Position numbers and translations under genes: made by a program. This document shows, piece after piece, positions 4,582-57,402 of a stretch of DNA of 64,000 nt. Below the pieces are notes generated by a model, which was not told the DNA's origin, made no database searches, and saw only the letters and a list, made by a program, of their open reading frames with translations. Where the stretch lies: positions 1 through 64,000 of the IMG/VR virus record IMGVR_UViG_2600255062_000003. One strand, 5' to 3'. This DNA is from a virus (taxonomy: Duplodnaviria > Caudoviricetes). Numbering within the stretch: position 1 is the first letter of the stretch; each line of letters opens with the position of its first letter.

Positions 4582-6236
4582 CGACTGTTTGCATTTATAT
4601 GTTTATTATCGGATTCTTTCTTCTCATAATCAACAAAGCCCAGATGTAAATAAACATTTATTTTATTGTCTTCAGTAAGTATAACTTTTTTCACAAACAG
4701 TCGCGTCACTTTTCTCTTGGTCTCCATATCTATATGGTCATTATCGAGCAAATATTTAAAAGATCGTAGTGATTTTTGTACCATTTCAATATGGTTTTGC
4801 TTATTAAACACAGTTGATAAGCTTTTTTCTATTACTTGTAATTCCTCTTTTATGTCTTGTACCTGCAAATCCACCGCTGATACCTTGTCCTCTAAATCCT
4901 TCATTGATTTGATTATTCCAGCCGCATACATCTCTGTATAACGTTCGCGAGACGCTTCTTTTTCCTGTAGGGACTTTTCTAATTTCTTTTTTTGTTTAAG
5001 CAATTCATCAGTGTTTGAGTTTTCTGATTGCTGTTTAATTATACGTTCAAAAAATTCTGTTGGTTCAGATATAATATTTTTAATGTACTCCCAAACAATC
5101 TTATCTACGTAATCAACTCTCCAATTACGTCCCTCACAGATCGGATTGGACTCTCCTGTTCCAACTTCCCATGATTTTTTCGTTTTATGTTGACAAACGT
5201 AATATTTCAGCAGCCCACTTTTAGTCTTCGTAGTCACACCCGACGATACTGCCGCGCCACATCTTCCACATCGACAAATACCTTGCAAAAGATAATCTTC
5301 TGTTGGTCTACCAGATTTGTTTTTGTTTAGTTCATCAAGTCTCTTTTGAATTTTATGATATGTCTCCATTGTAATGTATGCAGGTACAGGTATACGTCTC
5401 CATTCTTCCCTTGGTTGTGGAACTTGCTTCTTTGTTCCATCGGCATTACGAATTACTTTAGATTTGCCAAAATAATAGTTTCCTGTATACGTTTCATTTT
5501 TAAATATTCTACTAATCGTAACTTGATACCATCTATCTTTTTTAGGGGCTGCTACGTTATGTAGAGATAATTCCTCAGCAATCCTAGAACAGCTATAATC
5601 ATTATGTAGGAGCTTATCAACCATTTTTAAATAAATTTCTTTTTCTTCTGGATTCTCAACAAGTGTGTCTAGTTCTGTATCGTAAGTATACCCATAAATT
5701 CTATTTAATCCCGGTATAAGTCCATTTTTGACTTTAGTAATTCTTCCACGTTTGGTATCTGCTAAAATTTTTGCTTTATTATATTCAGCAATACTACCTT
5801 GAATGTTAAAGTTCAACATTGATTCGGGACTCGATTTATCAAATTCGAACTCCACAAACCAGAAGTCTTTTCCCATACCCCATATACGATTAGACAGTTG
5901 GGTTTGTAAATGCAGGAAACGACTCATTCTATTGGGATGTAAAAAAATCACGTGGTCTCCAATCCCATATTCAAGCAAAAATAAAGCGTAATTAATCATT
6001 GGACGATTAGGATTGTCTCCACTTTCACCATCTTCAACTAGAACCACTACTTCATCTTCGGTAATACCTTTTTGCTTGGCTAAATCCATACATCTCTCGA
6101 TCTGAGACTCTATTGAATAGTTGTCAACTTGTCCGTCAGTTGAAACACGAGCATAAATAAGAGCCTTGATCTTTGTGACCAAGGCTTCAAGCTCAGTTTT
6201 GGTGAATTTTTCTGAACCAGTTAAAGTCCTGAGCAT
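4452..6236 (-). CDS. Large serine recombinase (integrase)
   Basis: YARVST catalytic motif, recombinase domain, CGRCG/YYVC zinc ribbon, coiled coil; AGGAGG RBS. Confidence 0.95.
   Translation of the reverse strand: MLRTLTGSEKFTKTELEALVTKIKALIYARVSTDGQVDNYSIESQIERCMDLAKQKGITEDEVVVLVEDGESGDNPNRPMINYALFLLEYGIGDHVIFLHPNRMSRFLHLQTQLSNRIWGMGKDFWFVEFEFDKSSPESMLNFNIQGSIAEYNKAKILADTKRGRITKVKNGLIPGLNRIYGYTYDTELDTLVENPEEKEIYLKMVDKLLHNDYSCSRIAEELSLHNVAAPKKDRWYQVTISRIFKNETYTGNYYFGKSKVIRNADGTKKQVPQPREEWRRIPVPAYITMETYHKIQKRLDELNKNKSGRPTEDYLLQGICRCGRCGAAVSSGVTTKTKSGLLKYYVCQHKTKKSWEVGTGESNPICEGRNWRVDYVDKIVWEYIKNIISEPTEFFERIIKQQSENSNTDELLKQKKKLEKSLQEKEASRERYTEMYAAGIIKSMKDLEDKVSAVDLQVQDIKEELQVIEKSLSTVFNKQNHIEMVQKSLRSFKYLLDNDHIDMETKRKVTRLFVKKVILTEDNKINVYLHLGFVDYEKKESDNKHINANSRQVHGRSKKSIYFDSRWILGGNGLFFTNESWSSFSLSNPVGFS
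4570..4600. other. Host/prophage junction (att site), crossover near 4578-4583
   Basis: SpoVK-like reading stops upstream of ...CAAGTCCATGGAAGAT; sequence becomes AT-rich; adjacent to serine integrase. Confidence 0.75.
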
Positions 6237-6281
6237 AAAGTTCCTCCTATTATCTATTATATGATTATTTTTATGTATTAA

Positions 6282-6434
6282 TTATATATCTTTTGGTACT
6301 AAATGAGAATACTTTTTCATGGTATTTTCCAGCCACAATGAAAATTCGTTCTTTATTTCTTCTATCGGTTTGGCATCTTCTTCGTTAACAGCGTGGACTA
6401 CTACTTCAAAACTATCTATCTTACTTCTTTTCAA
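6282..6434 (-). CDS. 50-aa protein not in ORF track, candidate recombination directionality factor
   Basis: GAGAGGGGGGAG RBS, TTG start: MKRSKIDSFEVVVHAVNEEDAKPIEEIKNEFSLWLENTMKKYSHLVPKDI; directly upstream of integrase. Confidence 0.55.
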   Translation of the reverse strand: MKRSKIDSFEVVVHAVNEEDAKPIEEIKNEFSLWLENTMKKYSHLVPKDI

Positions 6435-6518
6435 TCTACTCCCCCCTCTCTATTGGTATTGAAAGAAGGTATTTAAATAGTTGTCTACAGTCTGTAAAAT
6501 ACTACTTTTATCATGAAA

Positions 6519-7067
6519 TTATTTGCTGCAACCATATGTATTTATTGCATTTTTAACAAAATCATTTAAGTGGTAATGCCACTTGCTTCTTTTTTTAAAT
6601 CCATTAAGTTCTATCCCTATCTCTTCACATATGCCTATAGGTATGCTGCTTTTATTCACTCTGTTCTTATATGTATGGCTAAGCTGATTTTGAGCAGTAA
6701 ATTGGTACTTAACAAAATCCTTGATATGTATAAAGAAAACTCTATTGTCTGGTTCTCTAAAATTTATAATAAAACCACTAATAACATTGTCGTACTCACT
6801 AGCCTCTTTTAATTTGTCAATCTGATGCTGTTTAATTACACTCTCATCAAAACTAACCGATTTTTGTTTTGTGGATTTAAGCTCTAAAGTAAAAAGATAT
6901 TTCTCAGAAAACATCATGCAGTCATAATCATTTTTCGTAACCCTAATTCTGTTTCTTAATTCCGCTGGAATAAAAGTATCTTTAATTCTGGTAAAAAATA
7001 TCTTCTGAGTTGATTCAGCAGACGCTTGAAAGTCACCCTCAAAAAGCTTTCCCTCATTCTTACTCAT
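6519..7067 (-). CDS. RecU-like Holliday junction resolvase
   Basis: GKLFEGDF...DC...LELKST...HQIDKL PD-(D/E)xK pattern. Confidence 0.7.
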   Translation of the reverse strand: MSKNEGKLFEGDFQASAESTQKIFFTRIKDTFIPAELRNRIRVTKNDYDCMMFSEKYLFTLELKSTKQKSVSFDESVIKQHQIDKLKEASEYDNVISGFIINFREPDNRVFFIHIKDFVKYQFTAQNQLSHTYKNRVNKSSIPIGICEEIGIELNGFKKRSKWHYHLNDFVKNAINTYGCSK

Positions 7068-46373: not shown

Positions 46374-46444
46374 TCAATCTCTCCTCTATGTATTATTTCG
46401 TCCTCTAACACATAATATCATATATTATTATATTTGTATATATA

Positions 46445-46714
46445 CTATTTGAATGCCACATCTACATTTAAAGCTACTGCTAGTTTTATCAAGAAATCAA
46501 AACTTGGTACATAACTACTATCTTCCATCTCAGCAATTTCACCAGCATTCACTTTCGCAAGATCAGCCAAATCGTTAATCTCAATCTCTTCGTTTTTGCG
46601 CTTGTCTGCGATTACATTTGTCAGCTTTGCTTTTAATGTTATCTCTTTTTTCTCGTTTTTCGACTTGTAGTTTAACTTGCTCTTCAAATCTGTCCACGTT
46701 TTAAACTGTTCCAT
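46445..46714 (-). CDS. XRE-family HTH protein
   Basis: DLADLAKV...IAEME...PSFDFLIKLA. Confidence 0.7.
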   Translation of the reverse strand: MEQFKTWTDLKSKLNYKSKNEKKEITLKAKLTNVIADKRKNEEIEINDLADLAKVNAGEIAEMEDSSYVPSFDFLIKLAVALNVDVAFK

Positions 46715-49912: not shown

Positions 49913-50892
49913 TTATTGCGTTCATCCTTTCTTGTAAAAGTCATATTTTATTTAGTCCTCAGTATACCATTGTCCTTCCAAGATCAACGCACCATTCAAT
50001 GGTTGAAAATGTTCCCTCCAAGCCGTAACTATATCATAACTATAGACAGTTTCTCGGTAGATGCATTTAGCCTTTTTGTCAAGCAAATCCCATCTCTGTA
50101 GCGCCTCCATAAATTCGCAAGCCCGATATCCCTCAAACATCTCAATTCTCCTTTCTACTTAAAACTCACATTTTATTCTGTTTCGAAACTAACTAATTCG
50201 GTCGGTACCAATTTAATTAATCCTGTCGTTGTTTCACATAATGAATACCCATCTTCATAATTGTAGATAACCTCTACTCTAAGATATCTTTCAAAATCCT
50301 CATATTTTTTAGATAAAAACCCCGTCTTACCAATGTACTTGTTATCATCTAAATATTTACCAATTTTTAAATATTGTTCTCTATATTCCATGAATGAATC
50401 TAACAGTTCAGATGCCTTATCTGTACCAATTTCTTTTTCTAATTTAAAATATAGGTCATTTTCAAGATCACGATAATCCATGTGAATTTTAAACATGTCC
50501 TTGTTCATTGTAAGTTCTCTCTCCTCGTAAAAGTGTTATTTTACTCACTCTTCTCAGATATTAACTCTTTCAATCTGTTAATTTCATATCCACACGAAGT
50601 ATATTCTCGTACACACTTATATTTTTCTTCCAATTTCTCCTGTTTGGTAAATAAGCGCTTCATCTGTCGTTTGTACTCAATTATTTCTGGGGAATCCCAC
50701 TCCTTGGGTTCACATATCAATTCATATGAATTTTTCAACCAGTATTCACCACCAATAAAATTATCTTTTTACTCTAGCTATCATACCTTCCTCGATGCTT
50801 ATCATAACAATATTATACAACATTTTCCTATGTATTTCCCGATAACTTATACATATAATATTATTATATTTGTTTATATAAGTCAAGCTGAA

Positions 50893-51307: not shown

Positions 51308-51853
51308 TATAGTGTACAACTAACTAAATAACTATTCAATAGCATCGTATCTAAACATATTCCCATCTGCCTCAATAAGAACTCTTTGTCCAACATATTC
51401 GCCATCTATGTATAATTCAAATTCATTTCCCTTGTGTTCAACCAAGAGAGCATTTGAAGGGATATTTCCGTAGTTTCTCGTAAACTCCTCTCCAGTGGGC
51501 AACTCAAACCGAACAACAATTAGATTATTCATGTGATTTGTTTTAAGGTAAATTCGAAATACATTGTCTGTCTTGGGTGGAAACTGATACTGAACATTTG
51601 CTTTCTGTTTTGCCATTATGTATTCTCCTATCTTGGTAAAACGATGCTTTTATTTGCTTTTATCTTTTATGTACTCTTCTACTTCAATCATAAATAAATC
51701 AATTTTCACATTCAGCCCCACTCTCAGTTCTTACCCCCCAATTTGAAACCACAATATTCAAGGCACAAATCTAGAATGTAAGATGAAGAACTGTATTAAC
51801 ACCAAAGTAAATGGTAATGATGCTAATGAAAAAAACGAAAGCGAGGTGGAAAT

Positions 51854-52033
51854 ATGATAAAGGTAGAAAAAATGAGTGATAAAGAAATAAAGATTACATT
51901 GCCAGAAAATATGCATGTAGGAAAAGAACAACCTGATGTTACTGAGTTATATCATGCTTTAACTAATCAACTTGTGCCAGTGCCAAATCGTGCCGACGAT
52001 CATGATGTTTGCATCATTCAAGTAGGCCATTAG
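51854..52033 (+). CDS. Putative RiPP precursor peptide, 59 aa (not in ORF track)
   Basis: GAGGTGG RBS; MIKVEKMSDKEIKITLPENMHVGKEQPDVTELYHALTNQLVPVPNRADDHDVCIIQVGH; directly upstream of SPASM enzyme. Confidence 0.75.
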   Translation: MIKVEKMSDKEIKITLPENMHVGKEQPDVTELYHALTNQLVPVPNRADDHDVCIIQVGH

Positions 52034-52044
52034 TCAATATTATC

Positions 52045-52096
52045 CCTTAATACCGACGTACCTTAATATTTGGTGTACGCTAGGTATTAAGGTTTT
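52045..52096 (+). terminator. Stem-loop between peptide and maturase genes
   Basis: CCTTAATACC/GGTATTAAGG outer stem, CGTAC/GTACG inner stem, then TTTT. Confidence 0.7.
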
Positions 52097-52112
52097 AAAA
52101 AGGAGCACTAAT

Positions 52113-53450
52113 ATGAAACTTAAACCATCTAATTATAACTTACTTATTAATGATAAAGATGAAGATTATTATCTGAATACCTATACAGGTTCGACGCTTA
52201 GATTAACTAAAAGAGCCTCAAAAGATTTATTATATATAATTAATAAAATCGAGAAATATGATGACATTGGATTGGAGTTCCAGTTAATTGTTGAACTATT
52301 ATTGGAGCATGGATTTGTTTTACCTTACGAATCTGATGAGTTAACTCTTGTTTTTAATACTTTTAATGAACGCCGCAAAAATAAATCTGCACTATCTCTC
52401 CTAATCACACCTACTTTGAAATGTAATATGAAATGTTTCTACTGTTATCAAGATCGTAATAATCAAAGTAACTTAAACAAACATGATATTTCTTCAATTG
52501 TTAGTTTTGCCGCTGAAAAACTAGAACAATCAAATCGACTTCGTGTTACTTGGTTCGGTGGAGAACCTCTATTCGATAAGGGCTTTTTGTTTGAATGTTC
52601 AAATGCTTTGATAGAATTAGCGAAAAACCGCTATATCGATTACAGTGCGACAATAGTCTCCAATGCTTACTTATTAGATACTGAAACATTACTTAATTTA
52701 GTCAAACATAAAGTTAAAAATATTCAAGTTACTCTAGATGGATCGCAAGTTTTTCATGATAAGGTTAGACGACATTTAAATGTTGCAACAAATAAAAGAG
52801 AAGCATCATTTGAGAAAATAATAAACAATATTAATCTGGCTTCCAATTATTTAGATATTACTGTAAGAGTTAATGTATCGATTATAAACATGACTAGTAT
52901 AGAAAATTTAATTAATGAACTTGCAAAAGCTAACCTACAAAGTAAAATCAAAAATATATATTTTCATCCTATTTACAATTATAACACTATAAATTCCAAT
53001 TCTAACTACAAACCTACAGAAGGTACACATCTTACAATTCAGCAGTTTGCTAAGTTAGAAGTTGAGTGGTTGCGCCAAGCCTATAATAAAGGGTTCAAAA
53101 TTAACTTTCCGCTCAAATCGGGCTGCTCTGCTCTTCAAGAAAACAGTTTTATAATTGAAAGCAACGGCGAAGTGAAAAAATGCAATAATGATATTGGAAA
53201 AAGTGGTACGGCTTTTACGACAATTTATACAACTGAATTAATTTCAAAATTCAATATTGATAATTGGAAAAATTATCACCCAGAAACAATAACTGAATGC
53301 AGAAACTGTATGTTTCTTCCTGTTTGCTTTTCCAACTGTCCACATAGAAATATGAATTCTGCTGAAAGAAAGCCAGATAAGTGTCCTTCCTTCAAATACA
53401 ACTGGCGAGAAGTACTTCCTTTTGTCTTAAATCAAATGTCAAAAGATTGA
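52113..53450 (+). CDS. Radical SAM/SPASM peptide maturase
   Basis: CNMKCFYC, WFGGEPL, QVTLDG; SPASM cysteines GC...KC...CRNC.FLPVC...CP...C; ~90-aa N-terminal extension. Confidence 0.9.
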   Translation: MKLKPSNYNLLINDKDEDYYLNTYTGSTLRLTKRASKDLLYIINKIEKYDDIGLEFQLIVELLLEHGFVLPYESDELTLVFNTFNERRKNKSALSLLITPTLKCNMKCFYCYQDRNNQSNLNKHDISSIVSFAAEKLEQSNRLRVTWFGGEPLFDKGFLFECSNALIELAKNRYIDYSATIVSNAYLLDTETLLNLVKHKVKNIQVTLDGSQVFHDKVRRHLNVATNKREASFEKIINNINLASNYLDITVRVNVSIINMTSIENLINELAKANLQSKIKNIYFHPIYNYNTINSNSNYKPTEGTHLTIQQFAKLEVEWLRQAYNKGFKINFPLKSGCSALQENSFIIESNGEVKKCNNDIGKSGTAFTTIYTTELISKFNIDNWKNYHPETITECRNCMFLPVCFSNCPHRNMNSAERKPDKCPSFKYNWREVLPFVLNQMSKD

Positions 53451-53502
53451 AATTATTAAAGATCAAATGTTCATTTTATCATTTAATAAGCAACACATAG
53501 TA

Positions 53503-54315
53503 CTATTCAAGTGCAGCACGATGTCTTAATTTTGACCAGTCTTTATCTGGATAAGTAAACCTCATTGCTTTGTATGGGCTACTATTGAAATAATTTGCTA
53601 AAATGTTCCCTAAACCTGACTCTTTAAAATGTGTATATTTGAGGTTATCTAATGTTTGTTCATAATCCCAACTTAAACGTTCTTCAATCAGCCATTTGAA
53701 ACTCTCTTTCATATCTGATTCAGTCCATGTGGGTAATTTTTTAAACTCCCAAATTTTGAAATCATATTCCTCGAAGCAATAACTAAGTAATTCATATAAA
53801 CCTGAAGAATCTCTGTCTATTAATTCTCCATACGCACCTTGGTGAAATGCAGCATACATTTTTTTGAACCCATATTCATTAAAATCCTTGCTAATGTTAT
53901 TTATGATTTCATGTCTTCCCCACTTTAACTTATCGTTAAATACCCATCTAACCGCTTTTTTAATTGTTTCGTCATCCCAACATCCATTTGGAGATGTTTT
54001 CATTTCCCAAGGATGAAAGTTCCATTCAGGAAATGTTTCTTTTACAGCAAGATATGGACTTTTCTCAAAGTACTTTCCAAATCCTGTTGCTAATTTGACC
54101 TTACCAAACCATTTTGCCGTTATATTTTCTAATGCCATTTCTTTATCCCAGCCATAAATACATTCAACTGCAAATCTTAAACATCTTTTATAAAAGTAAA
54201 CCCCTGTCTTATCATCACTCCAAGTACCATCAGGAAACCTCTTTATTTTCCCATTCAGAACTTCTTGATAAGTGGCAATTATATCTCTAGTTACGTTCTC
54301 AACCATACCTCTCAC
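53503..54315 (-). CDS. DUF4046-like repeat protein
   Basis: FPDGTW and repeated SPY...FP...WE...W units. Confidence 0.6.
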   Translation of the reverse strand: MRGMVENVTRDIIATYQEVLNGKIKRFPDGTWSDDKTGVYFYKRCLRFAVECIYGWDKEMALENITAKWFGKVKLATGFGKYFEKSPYLAVKETFPEWNFHPWEMKTSPNGCWDDETIKKAVRWVFNDKLKWGRHEIINNISKDFNEYGFKKMYAAFHQGAYGELIDRDSSGLYELLSYCFEEYDFKIWEFKKLPTWTESDMKESFKWLIEERLSWDYEQTLDNLKYTHFKESGLGNILANYFNSSPYKAMRFTYPDKDWSKLRHRAALE

Positions 54316-54368: not shown

Positions 54369-54692
54369 CTAAGTGGTAGACTTTTTGCAACTCATACAGA
54401 CGCAACACATATTTTTGGGGCTTCTTATCCCACCATCAGAAGGAGGCACTATATAATCCGTGCTCTCACCTTTATTGCCACAGTAAACGCAAGTATTTTC
54501 GTCAATCTTCCTAACGTATCTTCGTAAACTTCTTCTGTCAAACAGTTTATAAATTGTATACGGATTAGCAATCACAGCAGATCCTTCGTGCACCATTTTT
54601 ATTGCCTTTTTATATGGAACTATATTTAAGTATTTGACCCCTAAAGCTTTAATGGGCTTAACAGTAACCCATTCCTGTTTGAAGAGTTTCAC
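54369..54692 (-). CDS. Degenerate HNH-like protein
   Basis: CVYCG...TDYIVP..DGG...N...CMSC; catalytic His appears replaced by Tyr. Confidence 0.6.
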   Translation of the reverse strand: MKLFKQEWVTVKPIKALGVKYLNIVPYKKAIKMVHEGSAVIANPYTIYKLFDRRSLRRYVRKIDENTCVYCGNKGESTDYIVPPSDGGIRSPKNMCCVCMSCKKSTT

Positions 54693-55294: not shown

Positions 55295-56833
55295 CTATAT
55301 ATTTTGAACTAAAATTTCGTTAACCAATTCTATAAATTTATCTCCATCGATAATCTCACTATTAAAATCTGAACCTAATACATTCAAGTGTGATAATGTC
55401 TTTTCTAGGCCATCAAACTCAACTGCAAATGGCTCTTTAATGTTACTAGGTCTTTGACGGAATGAACCAATTTTATTTTTCATAAAAAACCATTTACCAT
55501 AAATATTGTCCGCTTCCTCAACCAGCAATAAATTAAAACCTTGCCCATCGTAAATATCAAAATAACCCCACGCAATTATCAGTTGATCTCTGAGTTTAGG
55601 ACGTACAACAACTTGATATTTACTTTCCCAAAAACTATCTTCTCTAATTTTATAAAAATCTTTATCAAACAATACTCTTAGTCTTATGTTGACTTTTTTA
55701 AGTGATGGTAATTTGAGTTCCAAATTAATATAGTCTCTTTTCAGATCGTTAAACGAATCCAAGATCATCTTTGAGCCAGTGTATCTTGTATTGAACTCAT
55801 TCACATATTCCTTTAGTGGTTCGTAAATACATTCTTTGAATTGATAGTTAATTCTTTTTACATGATCCTGTTTTTCGTTTTCTTCTTTTTGTTTCAGAAG
55901 TTGCTGGGTCTTATGCGACTCATCTTTTACAACTTTAATGTTAACAAGATTGTCAATTAAACTTGTTACGGAAGTTGCAGGTGTCTCATCTAAACCAATC
56001 TCTCTTTCAATCTCTTCCCAGTTTTTATAGCGCGCGCCAACATTCTTCTCAATCATCTTATTGACAACTTGTACAATACTGTTGGTAATAGTTGGATTAA
56101 TCTGTTTTATTGGTGTTGGATTTTGAAATGTATGAGCCTCTTGCCACATAGTCATATCAGCCTCATTTTTAACCTCATAAGGATGTCTAAGTGTAGCTAG
56201 TTCATAAAATAGGATTCCCATTGAATAGATGTCATTTTGAATTGTGTTTTTTTCGCTTCTCCATCTTTCTGGCGCCATATACTTAATGTGACCGATGCCT
56301 TTAAAAGTAAGTTGTCTAGTCTCTTCTGTTGCAACTTTAGCAAGACCAAAATCAGCGATTTTTAGAGTTCCCTTATGAATCAATATATTATCTGCCTTTA
56401 TATCCCTATGTACTAAGAGATCGTTTATATGTTTCATTCCCTGAATTAGCTGACTGTAAAACTCTTTCAACAGTTCGTTTGAAAAGAAAACACCTTCTTC
56501 TTTTTGCTTATTCAAATAACTCAATAATGTCCCTTGGTCTGCGTATTCCATAATTAAATATGGTGGTAAATTCGGATATTTATCCTTGTGTATATAGAAA
56601 TATTTTACTGCATTGGGATGAGAAACTTTTGTTGCCATTTGGCATTCATTTATAAATGTGACATAAGCTTCTTGTGTAGGAAATGTTGTTGGTAGTGTCT
56701 TTAAAGCAAAGACACTTTTATCCGACTTCCTTTGAATCTTAAAAACAAACCCAAAATTCCCATTTCCAATCATTTCAATTACTTCATACTCCTCTTCGGA
56801 TTCATCAAATACAGTAACACCCTGAGCAATCAT
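55295..56833 (-). CDS. Hanks-type Ser/Thr kinase with unknown C-terminal domain
   Basis: IGNGNFG, ALK, HRDIKADN, DFG, APE; own TG-TATAAT at 56864-56871. Confidence 0.92.
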   Translation of the reverse strand: MIAQGVTVFDESEEEYEVIEMIGNGNFGFVFKIQRKSDKSVFALKTLPTTFPTQEAYVTFINECQMATKVSHPNAVKYFYIHKDKYPNLPPYLIMEYADQGTLLSYLNKQKEEGVFFSNELLKEFYSQLIQGMKHINDLLVHRDIKADNILIHKGTLKIADFGLAKVATEETRQLTFKGIGHIKYMAPERWRSEKNTIQNDIYSMGILFYELATLRHPYEVKNEADMTMWQEAHTFQNPTPIKQINPTITNSIVQVVNKMIEKNVGARYKNWEEIEREIGLDETPATSVTSLIDNLVNIKVVKDESHKTQQLLKQKEENEKQDHVKRINYQFKECIYEPLKEYVNEFNTRYTGSKMILDSFNDLKRDYINLELKLPSLKKVNIRLRVLFDKDFYKIREDSFWESKYQVVVRPKLRDQLIIAWGYFDIYDGQGFNLLLVEEADNIYGKWFFMKNKIGSFRQRPSNIKEPFAVEFDGLEKTLSHLNVLGSDFNSEIIDGDKFIELVNEILVQNI

Positions 56834-57402
56834 GGAAAGTCCTCCCTAAATTTTTGTAACTCAATTATACAATAACCTGTTGTTATATGTCGTCCCCTCC
56901 CTTCTCGTAATGGATATAAAAGAACTCATTTATCTGATTATTTATAGCTTTTTGTCCAAGATACCTCTTTGTGATTGCTGTTTTGAGATTGAAATTCCCA
57001 TCCATTACTAGTCATATATACTGCATGTTGTAGGTATTCCTCATAGCTACTATATTCGTAGTTTACAATTTCAAATCTAATTTTCGGCATAATAGCATTA
57101 TCCTCCTCTGTTATTTCAGTATCTGATTGTTTATCTTCATTTTGTCCATGTTCTTCTGTAATCATAGAATCAGGGATCAAATAGCCTCTGCAATGTGGAC
57201 ATCTATCATAATCCTCTGACCATATTTCACCACATCCCTCATAATGGGAAAAGTGAAATAAATGTCTTTTGGGCACTCCTATGCATCGGTACATTATGTA
57301 TTTCCCTCCTAAAAATAAATGGCGTTACAACAACTTCACTAAAGTCATTATACCACCATTTATTAACTATGTATATTATTATTTTTGTTTATATAATTTG
57401 AT

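What the first reader, a model, noticed from the sequence alone, without database searches (positions are those of the whole stretch)
51652..53463. Prophage-borne minimal RiPP cassette: hidden 59-aa peptide, hairpin and SPASM radical SAM enzyme
Seen: this is the only convincing plus-strand unit in the prophage arm. It has an RBS-led 59-aa ORF (51854-52033) ending RADDHDVCIIQVGH with a single Cys, a long stem-loop plus TTTT, then a 445-aa CxxxCxxC/SPASM enzyme with an N-terminal extension of RRE size. Junction repeats flank it. Established: precursor-hairpin-maturase is typical RiPP architecture, SPASM enzymes form thioether or C-C/C-N crosslinks, and SPbeta itself carries the sublancin RiPP. 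Inference: I do not recognise this precursor as a known class. No transporter, peptidase or immunity gene is adjacent, so the product may act inside the cell (defence or lysogeny signalling) or be released at lysis.
Basis: partly seen in the sequence, partly recalled or inferred. Interest (0 to 1): 0.85.

Follow-up and report, generated by a model that had tools for sequence, protein, structure and literature searches.

The report
Phage-borne two-gene radical-SAM peptide cassette
A giant Paenibacillus prophage carries a self-contained gene pair, a 59-residue peptide and the radical-SAM enzyme that most likely ties its single cysteine into a small sulfur-bridged ring; the pair belongs to a rare, unnamed peptide family found from Bacillus to Proteobacteria.

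Summary
The unit is window 51854-52033 (59-aa ORF with RBS), a stem-loop with a U-tract at 52045-52096, and 52113-53450 (445-aa RRE / radical SAM / SPASM enzyme). It is the only plus-strand unit in a 171-kb SPbeta-like prophage of the Paenibacillus polymyxa group.

All 19 loci fetched with enzyme relatives (35-66% identity; Bacillus mycoides, a B. thuringiensis plasmid, Azospirillum, Phaeospirillum, Paraburkholderia, metagenomes) carry a homologous peptide gene directly upstream.

- **Precursor:** the leader is conserved, with Leu32 and Leu36 invariant. The C-terminal core has an invariant Cys followed by x-x-[D/Q/E/N] in 42 of 51 distinct precursors, 3-8 residues from the end.
- **Enzyme:** it has a seven-Cys SPASM domain. 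It aligns over its full length with the thioether-forming CteB. Its best curated-family scores are to thioether or Cys-peptide maturases, but all are below cut-off.
- **Databases and papers:** no Pfam or NCBIfam model covers the peptide, and I found no paper on the family.

Most likely it is a new radical-SAM RiPP family that forms a Cys(i)-to-(i+3) thioether microcycle. Chemistry and biological role are inferred, not shown. No protease or transporter for it was found in the phage.

The parts
51617..51853 (+). Divergent 237-bp intergenic region that should hold the cassette's own promoter. The candidate -10 (TAGAAT / TGTAAGAT) is at 51772-51784.
   Evidence: The minus-strand gene starts at 51616 and the precursor at 51854. 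The -10-like box aligns with TATAAAAT-type boxes upstream of the precursors in L121, L125 and L003. The consensus scan called no sigma-70 promoter here, so this is weak.
51843..51849 (+). Ribosome-binding site GAGGTGG of the precursor gene.
   Evidence: Read from the sequence. Comparable purine-rich, GGAG-type sites precede most of the precursor homologues; L012 and L013 lack a clear one.
51854..51976 (+). Leader of the precursor (residues 1-41). It has a beta-strand-like N-terminal part, the conserved E-L-Y-H-A-L-T helix with invariant Leu32 and Leu36, and ends at Arg41 (P-N-R).
   Evidence: Alignments A2 and A3 of 13 and 23 precursors. The leader/core boundary is inferred: many members have a basic residue 1-8 residues before the Cys.
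51977..52033 (+). Predicted core (residues 42-59, ending ...D-V-C-I-I-Q-V-G-H) plus the stop codon. Cys53 is at 52010-52012 and Gln56 at 52019-52021.
   Evidence: Cys53 is invariant in all 51 distinct precursors. The +3 residue after the last Cys is D, E, N or Q in 42 of 51, and the Cys lies 3-8 residues from the C-terminus.
52045..52096 (+). Stem-loop plus U4 between the precursor and enzyme genes. Probably a leaky terminator that sets a high precursor-to-enzyme ratio.
   Evidence: dG -21 kcal/mol, z -3.4. A stem-loop of unrelated sequence occupies the same position in L121, L125, L003, L124, L002 and L122, with z from -2.5 to -6.3.
52099..52105 (+). Ribosome-binding site AAAGGAG of the enzyme gene.
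   Evidence: Read from the sequence.
52113..52382 (+). N-terminal domain of the enzyme (residues 1-90). It is RRE-like: beta strands followed by helices.
   Evidence: AlphaFold2 model with mean pLDDT 85 and this domain at 86-94. The model aligns from residue 6 with CteB residue 1 (5WGG_A, Z 26.1, 391 residues aligned) and from residue 1 with TigE (8VPO). There was no Pfam PqqD hit.
52395..53012 (+). Radical SAM core (about residues 95-300). The CxxxCxxC motif C104/C108/C111 is at 52422-52445.
   Evidence: Pfam PF04055, 50.8 bits vs cut-off 29.5. The motif is invariant in A1.
53124..53450 (+). SPASM domain with seven invariant Cys (C338, C357, C396, C399, C405, C409, C424), the C-terminal helix and the stop codon.
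   Evidence: TIGR04085, 41.4 bits vs cut-off 27. The Cys are invariant across 20 family members, and the pattern is C-x13-G-x4-C ... C-x2-C-x5-C-x3-C ... C.

Best explanation
This is a genuine, self-contained RiPP cassette. It is carried as accessory cargo, transcribed against the flow of phage genes, on a 171-kb SPbeta-like prophage of the Paenibacillus polymyxa group.

Proposed mechanism:
1. The 59-aa product is a precursor peptide. Its conserved leader (strand-like N-terminus plus the E-L-Y-x-A-L-T helix) is bound by the enzyme's N-terminal RRE-like domain.
2. A leaky terminator hairpin between the genes keeps the precursor in excess over the enzyme.
3. The radical SAM core cleaves SAM to a 5'-deoxyadenosyl radical, which abstracts a hydrogen from a core residue. 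The thiolate of the single Cys53, held at the open iron of the first auxiliary cluster of the seven-Cys SPASM domain, captures the carbon radical.
4. The result is one intramolecular thioether. The most likely link is Cys53 to the side chain of Gln56 (i to i+3), giving a four-residue microcycle near the C-terminus.
5. The leader is then probably removed by a host protease, with a candidate site after Arg41. This would leave a 13-18-residue (or smaller) hydrophobic cyclic peptide.

Shown: the anatomy, co-conservation of peptide and enzyme across phyla, the domain architecture, and the C-x-x-[D/Q/E/N] core motif.

Inferred: the thioether chemistry, the acceptor residue, the cleavage site, and any biological role (antagonism, signalling or lysogen protection).
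For: **Co-conservation.** The enzyme family is about 20 clusters at 40-66% identity plus proteobacterial members at 35-41%. All 19 loci read have a homologous peptide gene immediately upstream, on the same strand, most with a recognisable RBS.

**Precursor.**
- Alignments show invariant Leu32, Leu36 and Cys53 with a variable remainder of the core.
- In 51 distinct precursors, the last Cys is followed at +3 by D (26), Q (7), N (5), E (4) or K (4). It sits 3-8 residues from the end.
- Two-Cys cores repeat the same C-x-x-X unit.

**Enzyme.**
- It has CxxxCxxC and a seven-Cys SPASM domain.
- The AlphaFold2 model has pLDDT 85.
- CteB (5WHY/5WGG) is the best Foldseek and profile hit, and it aligns over the full length including the N-terminal domain.
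- The best NCBIfam scores are to Cys-directed maturases: TIGR04463 247 bits, Clo7bot 206, CefB 132, PapB 102. TIGR04463 member CrpC was shown to install thioethers (PMC13692751). PapB links Cys to Asp or Glu (PMC9413430 abstract).

**RiPP context in relatives.** A subtilase-type protease with a pro-kumamolisin activation domain (sedolisin-like) and a B12-radical SAM enzyme lie downstream in the Azospirillum locus L007, with homologous ORFs in L009 and L011. A C14 peptidase lies beside four Bacillota loci.

**Hairpin.** It is conserved in position in 7 loci.
Against: - No chemistry was measured. The family is below the curated cut-off of every characterised maturase family, so its reaction cannot be transferred by homology.
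- The radical SAM / SPASM core aligns as well with anSME (Z 26.8) as with CteB (Z 26.1). anSME oxidises Cys to formylglycine.
- The +3 residue is not always polar. It is K, L, V, T or G in 9 of 51 precursors, so the acceptor may be elsewhere or at an alpha-carbon.
- The window cassette has no protease, transporter or recognisable immunity gene, and none was found among the families searched in the phage. A secreted product is therefore not assured.
- No promoter was called by the consensus scan, and expression is untested.
- The 51 precursors are related to one another, so the motif counts are not independent.
Confidence: 0.6

Rival explanations
1. The same precursor-enzyme pair, but different chemistry. 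The enzyme may oxidise Cys53 (anSME-like formylglycine or thioaldehyde), epimerise core residues, make a C-C or C-O crosslink, or process the C-terminus oxidatively as MftC does. The invariant Cys would then serve only as a cluster ligand or handle.
For: - The core of the model aligns best with anSME (Z 26.8).
- The enzyme reaches no curated thioether family cut-off.
- SPASM enzymes with similar architecture (SuiB, DynA, EpeE, MftC-type) perform non-thioether reactions, and several appear in the hit lists.
- Positions +1 and +2 after the Cys are strongly aliphatic: I, V, A or G. They could themselves be the targets.
Against: - The Cys is the only invariant core residue.
- Its +3 partner is D, E, N or Q in 82% of precursors, the acceptor types used by PapB, QhpD and NxxcB (named families from knowledge and PMC13692751).
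- The highest family scores are all to Cys-peptide maturases, while anSME scores only 63 bits against a 349 cut-off.
- A seven-Cys SPASM domain, which implies an open site on auxiliary cluster I, is the CteB arrangement (established knowledge, not tested here).
Confidence: 0.22
2. The product is not a secreted natural product. It is an intracellular peptide-derived effector, cofactor or signal used by the prophage, for example for lysogen defence, superinfection exclusion, or sporulation or lysis-lysogeny signalling.
For: - There is no exporter, protease or recognisable immunity gene in the cassette or among the families searched in the 171-kb phage.
- Minimal two-gene versions recur on mobile DNA: a locus flanked by resolvase and integrase in B. 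mycoides, and a B. thuringiensis plasmid.
- The cassette sits 1.8 kb from a kinase that matches PD-T4-6/mad6 defence kinases.
- Caspase-like and patatin genes lie beside Bacillus relatives.
Against: - The proteobacterial relatives have a sedolisin-like protease with a pro-domain and a tailoring B12-radical SAM enzyme, the usual make-up of a secreted RiPP cluster.
- PADLOC has no model for the pair. The only hit is generic radical SAM similarity to pVip.
- Neighbourhood alone is weak evidence.
Confidence: 0.12
3. The small ORF is a chance reading frame or a non-substrate accessory protein, and the radical SAM enzyme acts on something else. For example, it could be a viperin-like nucleotide-modifying antiviral enzyme.
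For: PADLOC pVip hit (54 bits) and NCBIfam viperin hit (53 bits) over the radical SAM core only.
Against: - The ORF is conserved with the enzyme in 19 of 19 loci across phyla, most with an RBS.
- The viperin score is far below its cut-off of 180, and viperins lack RRE and SPASM domains.
- A profile of the peptide finds about 30 small proteins in 1.84 billion representatives with E-values down to 1e-26.
Confidence: 0.03

Closest known systems
CteB / thermocellin (SCIFF-type ranthipeptide maturase, PDB 5WGG/5WHY)
   Same: Same three-domain build: N-terminal RRE, radical SAM core and a SPASM domain. It is the best profile hit in the PDB (E 7e-11) and the best Foldseek hit. The structural alignment covers the full length (Z 26.1, 391 residues). 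Its substrate is also a leader-bearing Cys peptide.
   Different: Only 15-16% identity. The SCIFF maturase model TIGR03974 scores 47 bits against a cut-off of 425. SCIFF precursors have six Cys in about 45 residues, whereas this one has a single Cys in a C-x-x-Q motif and an unrelated leader.
PapB / freyrasin (Paenibacillus ranthipeptide; Cys-X3-Asp thioethers)
   Same: Radical SAM / SPASM maturase from the same genus. It links Cys sulfur to Asp or Glu side chains in short repeated motifs (PMC9413430) and can also use the C-terminal residue (PMC12373016). The family core C-x-x-[D/E/N/Q] near the C-terminus resembles this logic.
   Different: The PapB model scores 102 bits against a cut-off of 340. 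The spacing is i+3, not i+4. There are one or two motifs, not six. The window's acceptor would be Gln, not Asp. PapB clusters include export and processing genes.
CrpC, TIGR04463 family (thioethers in Cys-rich archaeal proteins)
   Same: It is the highest-scoring curated family for the enzyme (247 bits over residues 8-435), and its thioether formation has been shown (PMC13692751).
   Different: The score is below the cut-off of 525. CrpC substrates are large proteins with many repeated Cys motifs from methanogens, whereas this one is a 59-aa single-Cys peptide.
NxxcB (streptococcal Cys-Asn beta-thioether RaS-RiPP)
   Same: It makes a single small thioether ring between a Cys and a polar residue three positions away. 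From knowledge only; not tested here.
   Different: The orientation is reversed (Asn at -3 rather than the acceptor at +3). The leader is different, and the system is under quorum-sensing control.
Sublancin (sunA) of Bacillus phage SPbeta
   Same: A RiPP carried as accessory cargo by an SPbeta-type prophage (established knowledge).
   Different: Sublancin is an S-glycosylated glycocin encoded with its own transporter, thiol-disulfide oxidoreductases and immunity gene. It involves no radical SAM enzyme. The cassette here has two genes only.

Membership tests
Radical SAM superfamily | CxxxCxxC cluster motif and a match to PF04055 above the gathering score. | tested here: met
   C104/C108/C111. 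PF04055 scores 50.8 bits against 29.5, and the motif is invariant in A1.
SPASM subfamily | C-terminal domain with the C-x9-15-G-x4-C ... C-x2-C-x5-C-x3-C ... C motif for auxiliary Fe-S clusters. | tested here: met
   TIGR04085 scores 41.4 bits against a cut-off of 27. The seven Cys at 338, 357, 396, 399, 405, 409 and 424 are invariant in 20 sequences.
RRE-dependent RiPP maturase | N-terminal PqqD-like RiPP recognition element. | tested here: inconclusive
   The model shows beta strands followed by helices in residues 1-90 at pLDDT 86-94. This domain is included in the alignment with CteB from its residue 1 and with TigE.
RiPP biosynthetic pair | A precursor gene adjacent to the maturase and co-conserved with it, with a conserved leader and a variable core. 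| tested here: met
   19 of 19 loci. Alignments A2 and A3.
TIGR04463 (CrpC-type) maturases | Score at or above the curated cut-off (525 bits). | tested here: not met
   246.7 bits.
Clo7bot maturase (TIGR04334) | Score at or above 600 bits. | tested here: not met
   206 bits.
PapB-family ranthipeptide maturase (NF047865) | Score at or above 340 bits. | tested here: not met
   102.1 bits.
SCIFF maturase (TIGR03974) | Score at or above 425 bits and a six-Cys SCIFF precursor. | tested here: not met
   47.1 bits. The precursor has one Cys.
Ranthipeptides (class) | Thioether from Cys sulfur to a non-alpha carbon. | not testable with these tools
   This needs MS/MS and NMR of the modified peptide. 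Only the C-x-x-[D/E/N/Q] motif points this way.
Sactipeptides (class) | Thioether from Cys sulfur to an alpha-carbon. | not testable with these tools
   Same reason. The acceptor carbon cannot be read from sequence.
Prokaryotic viperins (pVip) | Score at or above 180 bits for NF038283, with no RRE or SPASM domain and no peptide substrate. | tested here: not met
   53.1 bits, over the radical SAM core only.

The most novel reading that the evidence does not exclude
The cassette defines an undescribed RiPP class: very small C-terminal thioether microcycles (C-x-x-D/Q/E/N) made by a stand-alone RRE / radical SAM / SPASM enzyme. The family spreads on phages, plasmids and recombinase-flanked islands across Bacillota and Proteobacteria. 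In this prophage the product would act as a phage-encoded pheromone-sized signal or lysogen-protecting effector rather than a classical bacteriocin, and it would work without any dedicated protease or exporter.
Probability: 0.15. Interest if true: 0.8.

Novelty: new variant of a known kind. Interest (0 to 1): 0.55.

Why it matters
Radical SAM RiPPs are a main source of new peptide chemistry, and most families are still orphan. This family has three useful properties:
- **It is minimal.** Two genes, a 59-aa substrate and one Cys make it an unusually clean system for heterologous expression and for working out what decides the acceptor in thioether-forming SPASM enzymes.
- **It has a built-in natural substitution series.** The +3 residue varies (D, Q, E, N, K) across about 50 precursors from two phyla.
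- **It is phage-borne here.** Beyond sublancin, few RiPPs are known on temperate phages. A phage-carried micro-cyclic peptide with no exporter raises a testable question: do prophages use such peptides for signalling or lysogen fitness?

If the chemistry turns out to be an ordinary ranthionine and the peptide a narrow-spectrum bacteriocin, the finding is a routine new family.

Tried and rejected
- **DNA and protein searches of the phage collection.** There is no DNA match to the cassette or its 8-kb surroundings. Only distant radical SAM proteins (29% identity or less) were found.
- **Single-sequence locus scans.** Scans of genome and viral contigs found nothing. The profile scan found family members in genomes (L007-L014). 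In IMG/VR it found only other radical SAM families at 29% or less. This is therefore the only viral record found carrying the family.
- **Flanking 'junction repeats'.** Not found.
- **Moron test by synteny.** The flanking DUF4046 protein has no relatives in the genome collection scan. Whether the cassette is an insertion relative to sister phages therefore could not be shown.
- **Logan contigs with the identical enzyme.** Six of 16 were read. All are 100% identical and collinear with the window and simply end near the precursor. They give no evidence of an alternative junction or an inversion.
- **Literature.** No paper holds the accessions of family members. The FlmE/OhkG name leads to a paper on peptide arginases in orphan RiPP families that names FlmA and OhkA, which I did not read. 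The supplement of the radical SAM RiPP compendium PMC10288494 is not held, so I could not check whether the family appears in its network.
- **ESM Atlas.** Only generic radical SAM clusters.
- **Complex prediction.** I asked for enzyme + precursor + clusters + SAM.
- **Viperin and defence-system reading.** Rejected: only generic radical SAM core similarity.
- **Consensus promoter and terminator scan.** It called neither a promoter upstream of the precursor nor the hairpin.
Full report
**What is there**

The window is the first 64 kb of a 171,352-base virus record that CheckV rates complete. Host DNA with higher G+C (0.43-0.46 against about 0.33) occupies roughly the first 4.4 kb. A host-flank protein is 97-98% identical to proteins of Paenibacillus peoriae, P. 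kribbensis, P. brasilensis and P. jamilae. This is therefore a large prophage of the P. polymyxa group. Earlier notes of this scan call it SPbeta-like and integrated in spoVK; I checked only the host assignment.

Every credible gene of 100 aa or more in the phage part is on the minus strand, except the 445-aa ORF at 52113-53450. The plus-strand unit consists of:
- an RBS (GAGGTGG);
- a 59-aa ORF at 51854-52033 with a single Cys at position 53;
- a stem-loop at 52045-52092 followed by UUUU (dG -21 kcal/mol, z -3.4);
- a second RBS;
- the 445-aa ORF.

The one element I could not reproduce is the pair of flanking 'junction repeats'.

**The enzyme**

- **Domains.** Pfam calls a radical SAM domain, and NCBIfam calls a SPASM domain above its cut-off. 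The CxxxCxxC motif (C104/C108/C111) and seven SPASM cysteines are invariant in 20 relatives.
- **Structure.** An AlphaFold2 model built on that alignment is confident (pLDDT 85, pTM 0.85). It has three parts: a strand-then-helix N-terminal domain of about 90 residues, the radical SAM barrel and the SPASM domain.
- **PDB matches.** The best profile hit and best Foldseek hit is CteB, the thioether-forming maturase of thermocellin, followed by TigE, SuiB, anSME and SkfB. The second-look aligner aligns the model with CteB from residue 6 to 443 (Z 26.1, 391 residues) and with TigE from residue 1. The N-terminal domain therefore corresponds to the leader-binding domain of those enzymes. anSME, which lacks that domain, matches the core equally well (Z 26.8).
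- **Curated families.** The best scores are TIGR04463 (247 bits), Clo7bot (206), FlmE/OhkG (165), geopeptide (148), CefB (132) and PapB (102). All are far below their cut-offs of 340-600 bits.
- **What the nearest families do.** TIGR04463 was an orphan family until its member CrpC was shown to install thioethers in Cys-rich archaeal proteins (PMC13692751).

The enzyme therefore sits among Cys-directed SPASM maturases but belongs to none of the named families.

**The decisive test: do homologous enzymes have the peptide?**

The large protein collection holds about 20 clusters at 40-66% identity. Where named, they come from Bacillus mycoides, B. cereus and a B. thuringiensis plasmid, and are labelled only 'radical SAM/SPASM domain-containing protein'. 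A profile scan of species genomes added members at 35-41% identity in Azospirillum picis, Phaeospirillum tilakii, Paraburkholderia bannensis, a Sphingomonadaceae bacterium, Chromatiales and a Bacillota MAG.

I read the upstream DNA of all 19 loci fetched. Each has a small ORF directly upstream on the same strand, most with a recognisable RBS, and each is plainly homologous to the window's peptide. In the alignments, Leu32, Leu36 and Cys53 are invariant. The leader pattern is conserved: a strand-like [IV]-x-[VI]-[ED]-K-...-[LI]-K-[IV] segment, then E-[ED]-L-[YLH]-x-x-L. The stretch between leader and Cys is variable.

A profile of these peptides was run against 1.84 billion representative proteins without any word filter. 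It returned 36 hits, about 30 of them small proteins of this family, with E-values down to 1e-26. The word-indexed search gave 26, all unnamed or 'hypothetical' apart from one evident mislabel ('ribosomal protein S24E'). No Pfam or NCBIfam model recognises any of them.

The peptide family is rare, spans two phyla, and is not covered by the two curated libraries searched.

**What the core says**

I tabulated the last 22 residues of 51 distinct precursors.
- Half have one Cys and half have two.
- The last Cys always lies 3-8 residues from the C-terminus.
- Positions +1 and +2 are mostly I, V, A or G.
- Position +3 after the last Cys is D in 26, Q in 7, N in 5, E in 4 and K in 4. L, V, T or G occur in the other 5. 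That makes 82% D/E/N/Q.
- Cores with two Cys repeat the unit, for example C-I-V-Q ... C-G-I-Q or C-I-I-E-C-P-I-K.

The window's core is ...D-V-C-I-I-Q-V-G-H. Its closest relatives (L121, L125, L003) also have Q at +3.

Acidic and amide side chains are the acceptors used by the known non-alpha thioether enzymes:
- PapB: Cys to Asp or Glu (PMC9413430).
- QhpD: Cys to Asp and Glu (PMC13692751).
- NxxcB: Cys to Asn (from knowledge).

PapB has also been shown to use the C-terminal residue (PMC12373016). A seven-Cys SPASM domain leaves one iron of the first auxiliary cluster free for the substrate thiolate, as described for CteB (knowledge, not tested here).

Together this makes a Cys53-to-Gln56 thioether the most economical prediction. 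It remains an inference. The nine non-polar or basic exceptions would fit an alpha-carbon (sactionine) link or another acceptor equally well.

**Operon logic and accessory genes**

- **Hairpin.** A stem-loop lies between the precursor and enzyme genes in all seven loci folded. The sequences are unrelated but the position is the same (z -2.5 to -6.3). This is the usual way RiPP operons keep the precursor in excess.
- **Precursor formats.** There are three: short (56-65 aa, as here); a tandemly duplicated leader (94-96 aa, B. cereus group); and a conserved N-terminal extension of about 90 aa (149-173 aa, Paraburkholderia/Sphingomonadaceae type).
- **Accessory genes vary.** The Azospirillum, Chromatiales and Phaeospirillum loci share two downstream ORFs. 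In the Azospirillum locus these are a subtilase-type protease with a pro-kumamolisin activation domain (sedolisin-like) and a B12-binding radical SAM enzyme. The B12 enzyme is also present in L010. Four Bacillota loci have a divergent caspase-family C14 peptidase, three of them with a C92 amidase and two with a patatin.
- **Minimal loci.** The B. mycoides locus (next to a resolvase and an integrase), the B. thuringiensis plasmid locus, L125 and the window have only the two genes.
- **Candidate cleavage site.** Many precursors carry Arg or Lys 1-8 residues before the Cys. This could be a cleavage site for such proteases. In the window the candidate is after Arg41.
- **Nothing else in this phage.** Its neighbours are a DUF4046 protein, a small HNH protein and unknowns. 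The whole record has no ABC ATPase above cut-off, no C14 peptidase and no other radical SAM gene.

**Function**

I commit to the following. The pair makes a small leader-dependent thioether-cyclised peptide, expressed from its own promoter in the 237-bp divergent intergenic region. The only candidate signal there is a -10-like box at 51772-51784 that aligns with similar boxes in four relatives. The consensus scan found no promoter.

What the peptide does for the lysogen is open. The proteobacterial clusters look like ordinary secreted-RiPP clusters. The minimal mobile versions, and the position here 1.8 kb from a kinase matching PD-T4-6/mad6 defence kinases, allow an intracellular or signalling role. 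Nothing tests that. A viperin-like antiviral role for the enzyme is rejected, because the similarity is to the generic radical SAM core only.

**Novelty and limits**

The kind of system, a radical SAM/SPASM RiPP, is well known. SPbeta-type phages are known to carry a RiPP (sublancin). What is new is the family:
- an unmodelled precursor family;
- a maturase clade below every curated cut-off;
- a distinctive C-terminal C-x-x-[D/Q/E/N] core;
- carriage on a phage, the only such record found among 2.9 million viral contigs.

I found no paper on it. However, subscription papers and the supplement of the main radical SAM RiPP compendium are not searchable here, so prior listing in a similarity network cannot be excluded.

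The scan had already noted this same stretch in an overlapping window (e1-5749332).

Noticed in passing
window 55295-56833 (-): The 512-aa Ser/Thr kinase 1.8 kb from the cassette matches the PADLOC defence kinase models mad6 (182 bits) and PD-T4-6 (up to 165 bits). Its C-terminal half of about 200 aa is unmatched.
   Followed up: partly
window 46421-46448, 50857-50884, 57372-57399: A 24-28-nt AT-rich element (ATATTATTATnTTTGTTTATATAA) occurs three times in intergenic positions of this arm. It may be a repeated phage promoter or operator. Logan contigs of this phage tend to end just before the 57372 copy.
   Followed up: no
L002:4522-4812, L122:2649-2933, L123:4025-4315, L124:3363-3653: B. cereus-group members of the precursor family have a tandemly duplicated N-terminal leader segment (94-96 aa). 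L002 and L123 also carry a second precursor-like gene downstream of the enzyme (L002:6545-6823, L123:6462-6680).
   Followed up: partly
L012:4397-4849, L013:4448-4897; P0123-P0131: Paraburkholderia/Sphingomonadaceae-type precursors carry a conserved N-terminal extension of about 90 aa (L-P-D-C-x-T-Y-x-T-Y-R-P-I-L ... S-F-L-M-x-L-A-D-x-V-C) of unknown function, fused in front of the usual leader.
   Followed up: no
L003:3753-4562, L122:645-2347 and 5711-6628, L123:100-3535, L124:1510-3147: A caspase-family C14 peptidase lies divergently next to the cassette in four Bacillota loci. A C92 amidase is present in three of them and a patatin in two. These could be the leader protease or an unrelated defence-type island.
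   Followed up: partly
P0164, P0170, P0171, P0175, P0178: The strand-like N-terminal part of the leader profile (positions about 6-32) matches 2-10 repeated stretches in giant proteins of 960-2030 aa. This suggests the leader segment resembles a common beta-repeat unit.
   Followed up: no
window 54369-54692 (-) and 53503-54315 (-): A small HNH-motif protein (107 aa) and a DUF4046 protein (270 aa) lie convergent with the cassette. The DUF4046 protein had no relatives in the species-genome scan.
   Followed up: partly
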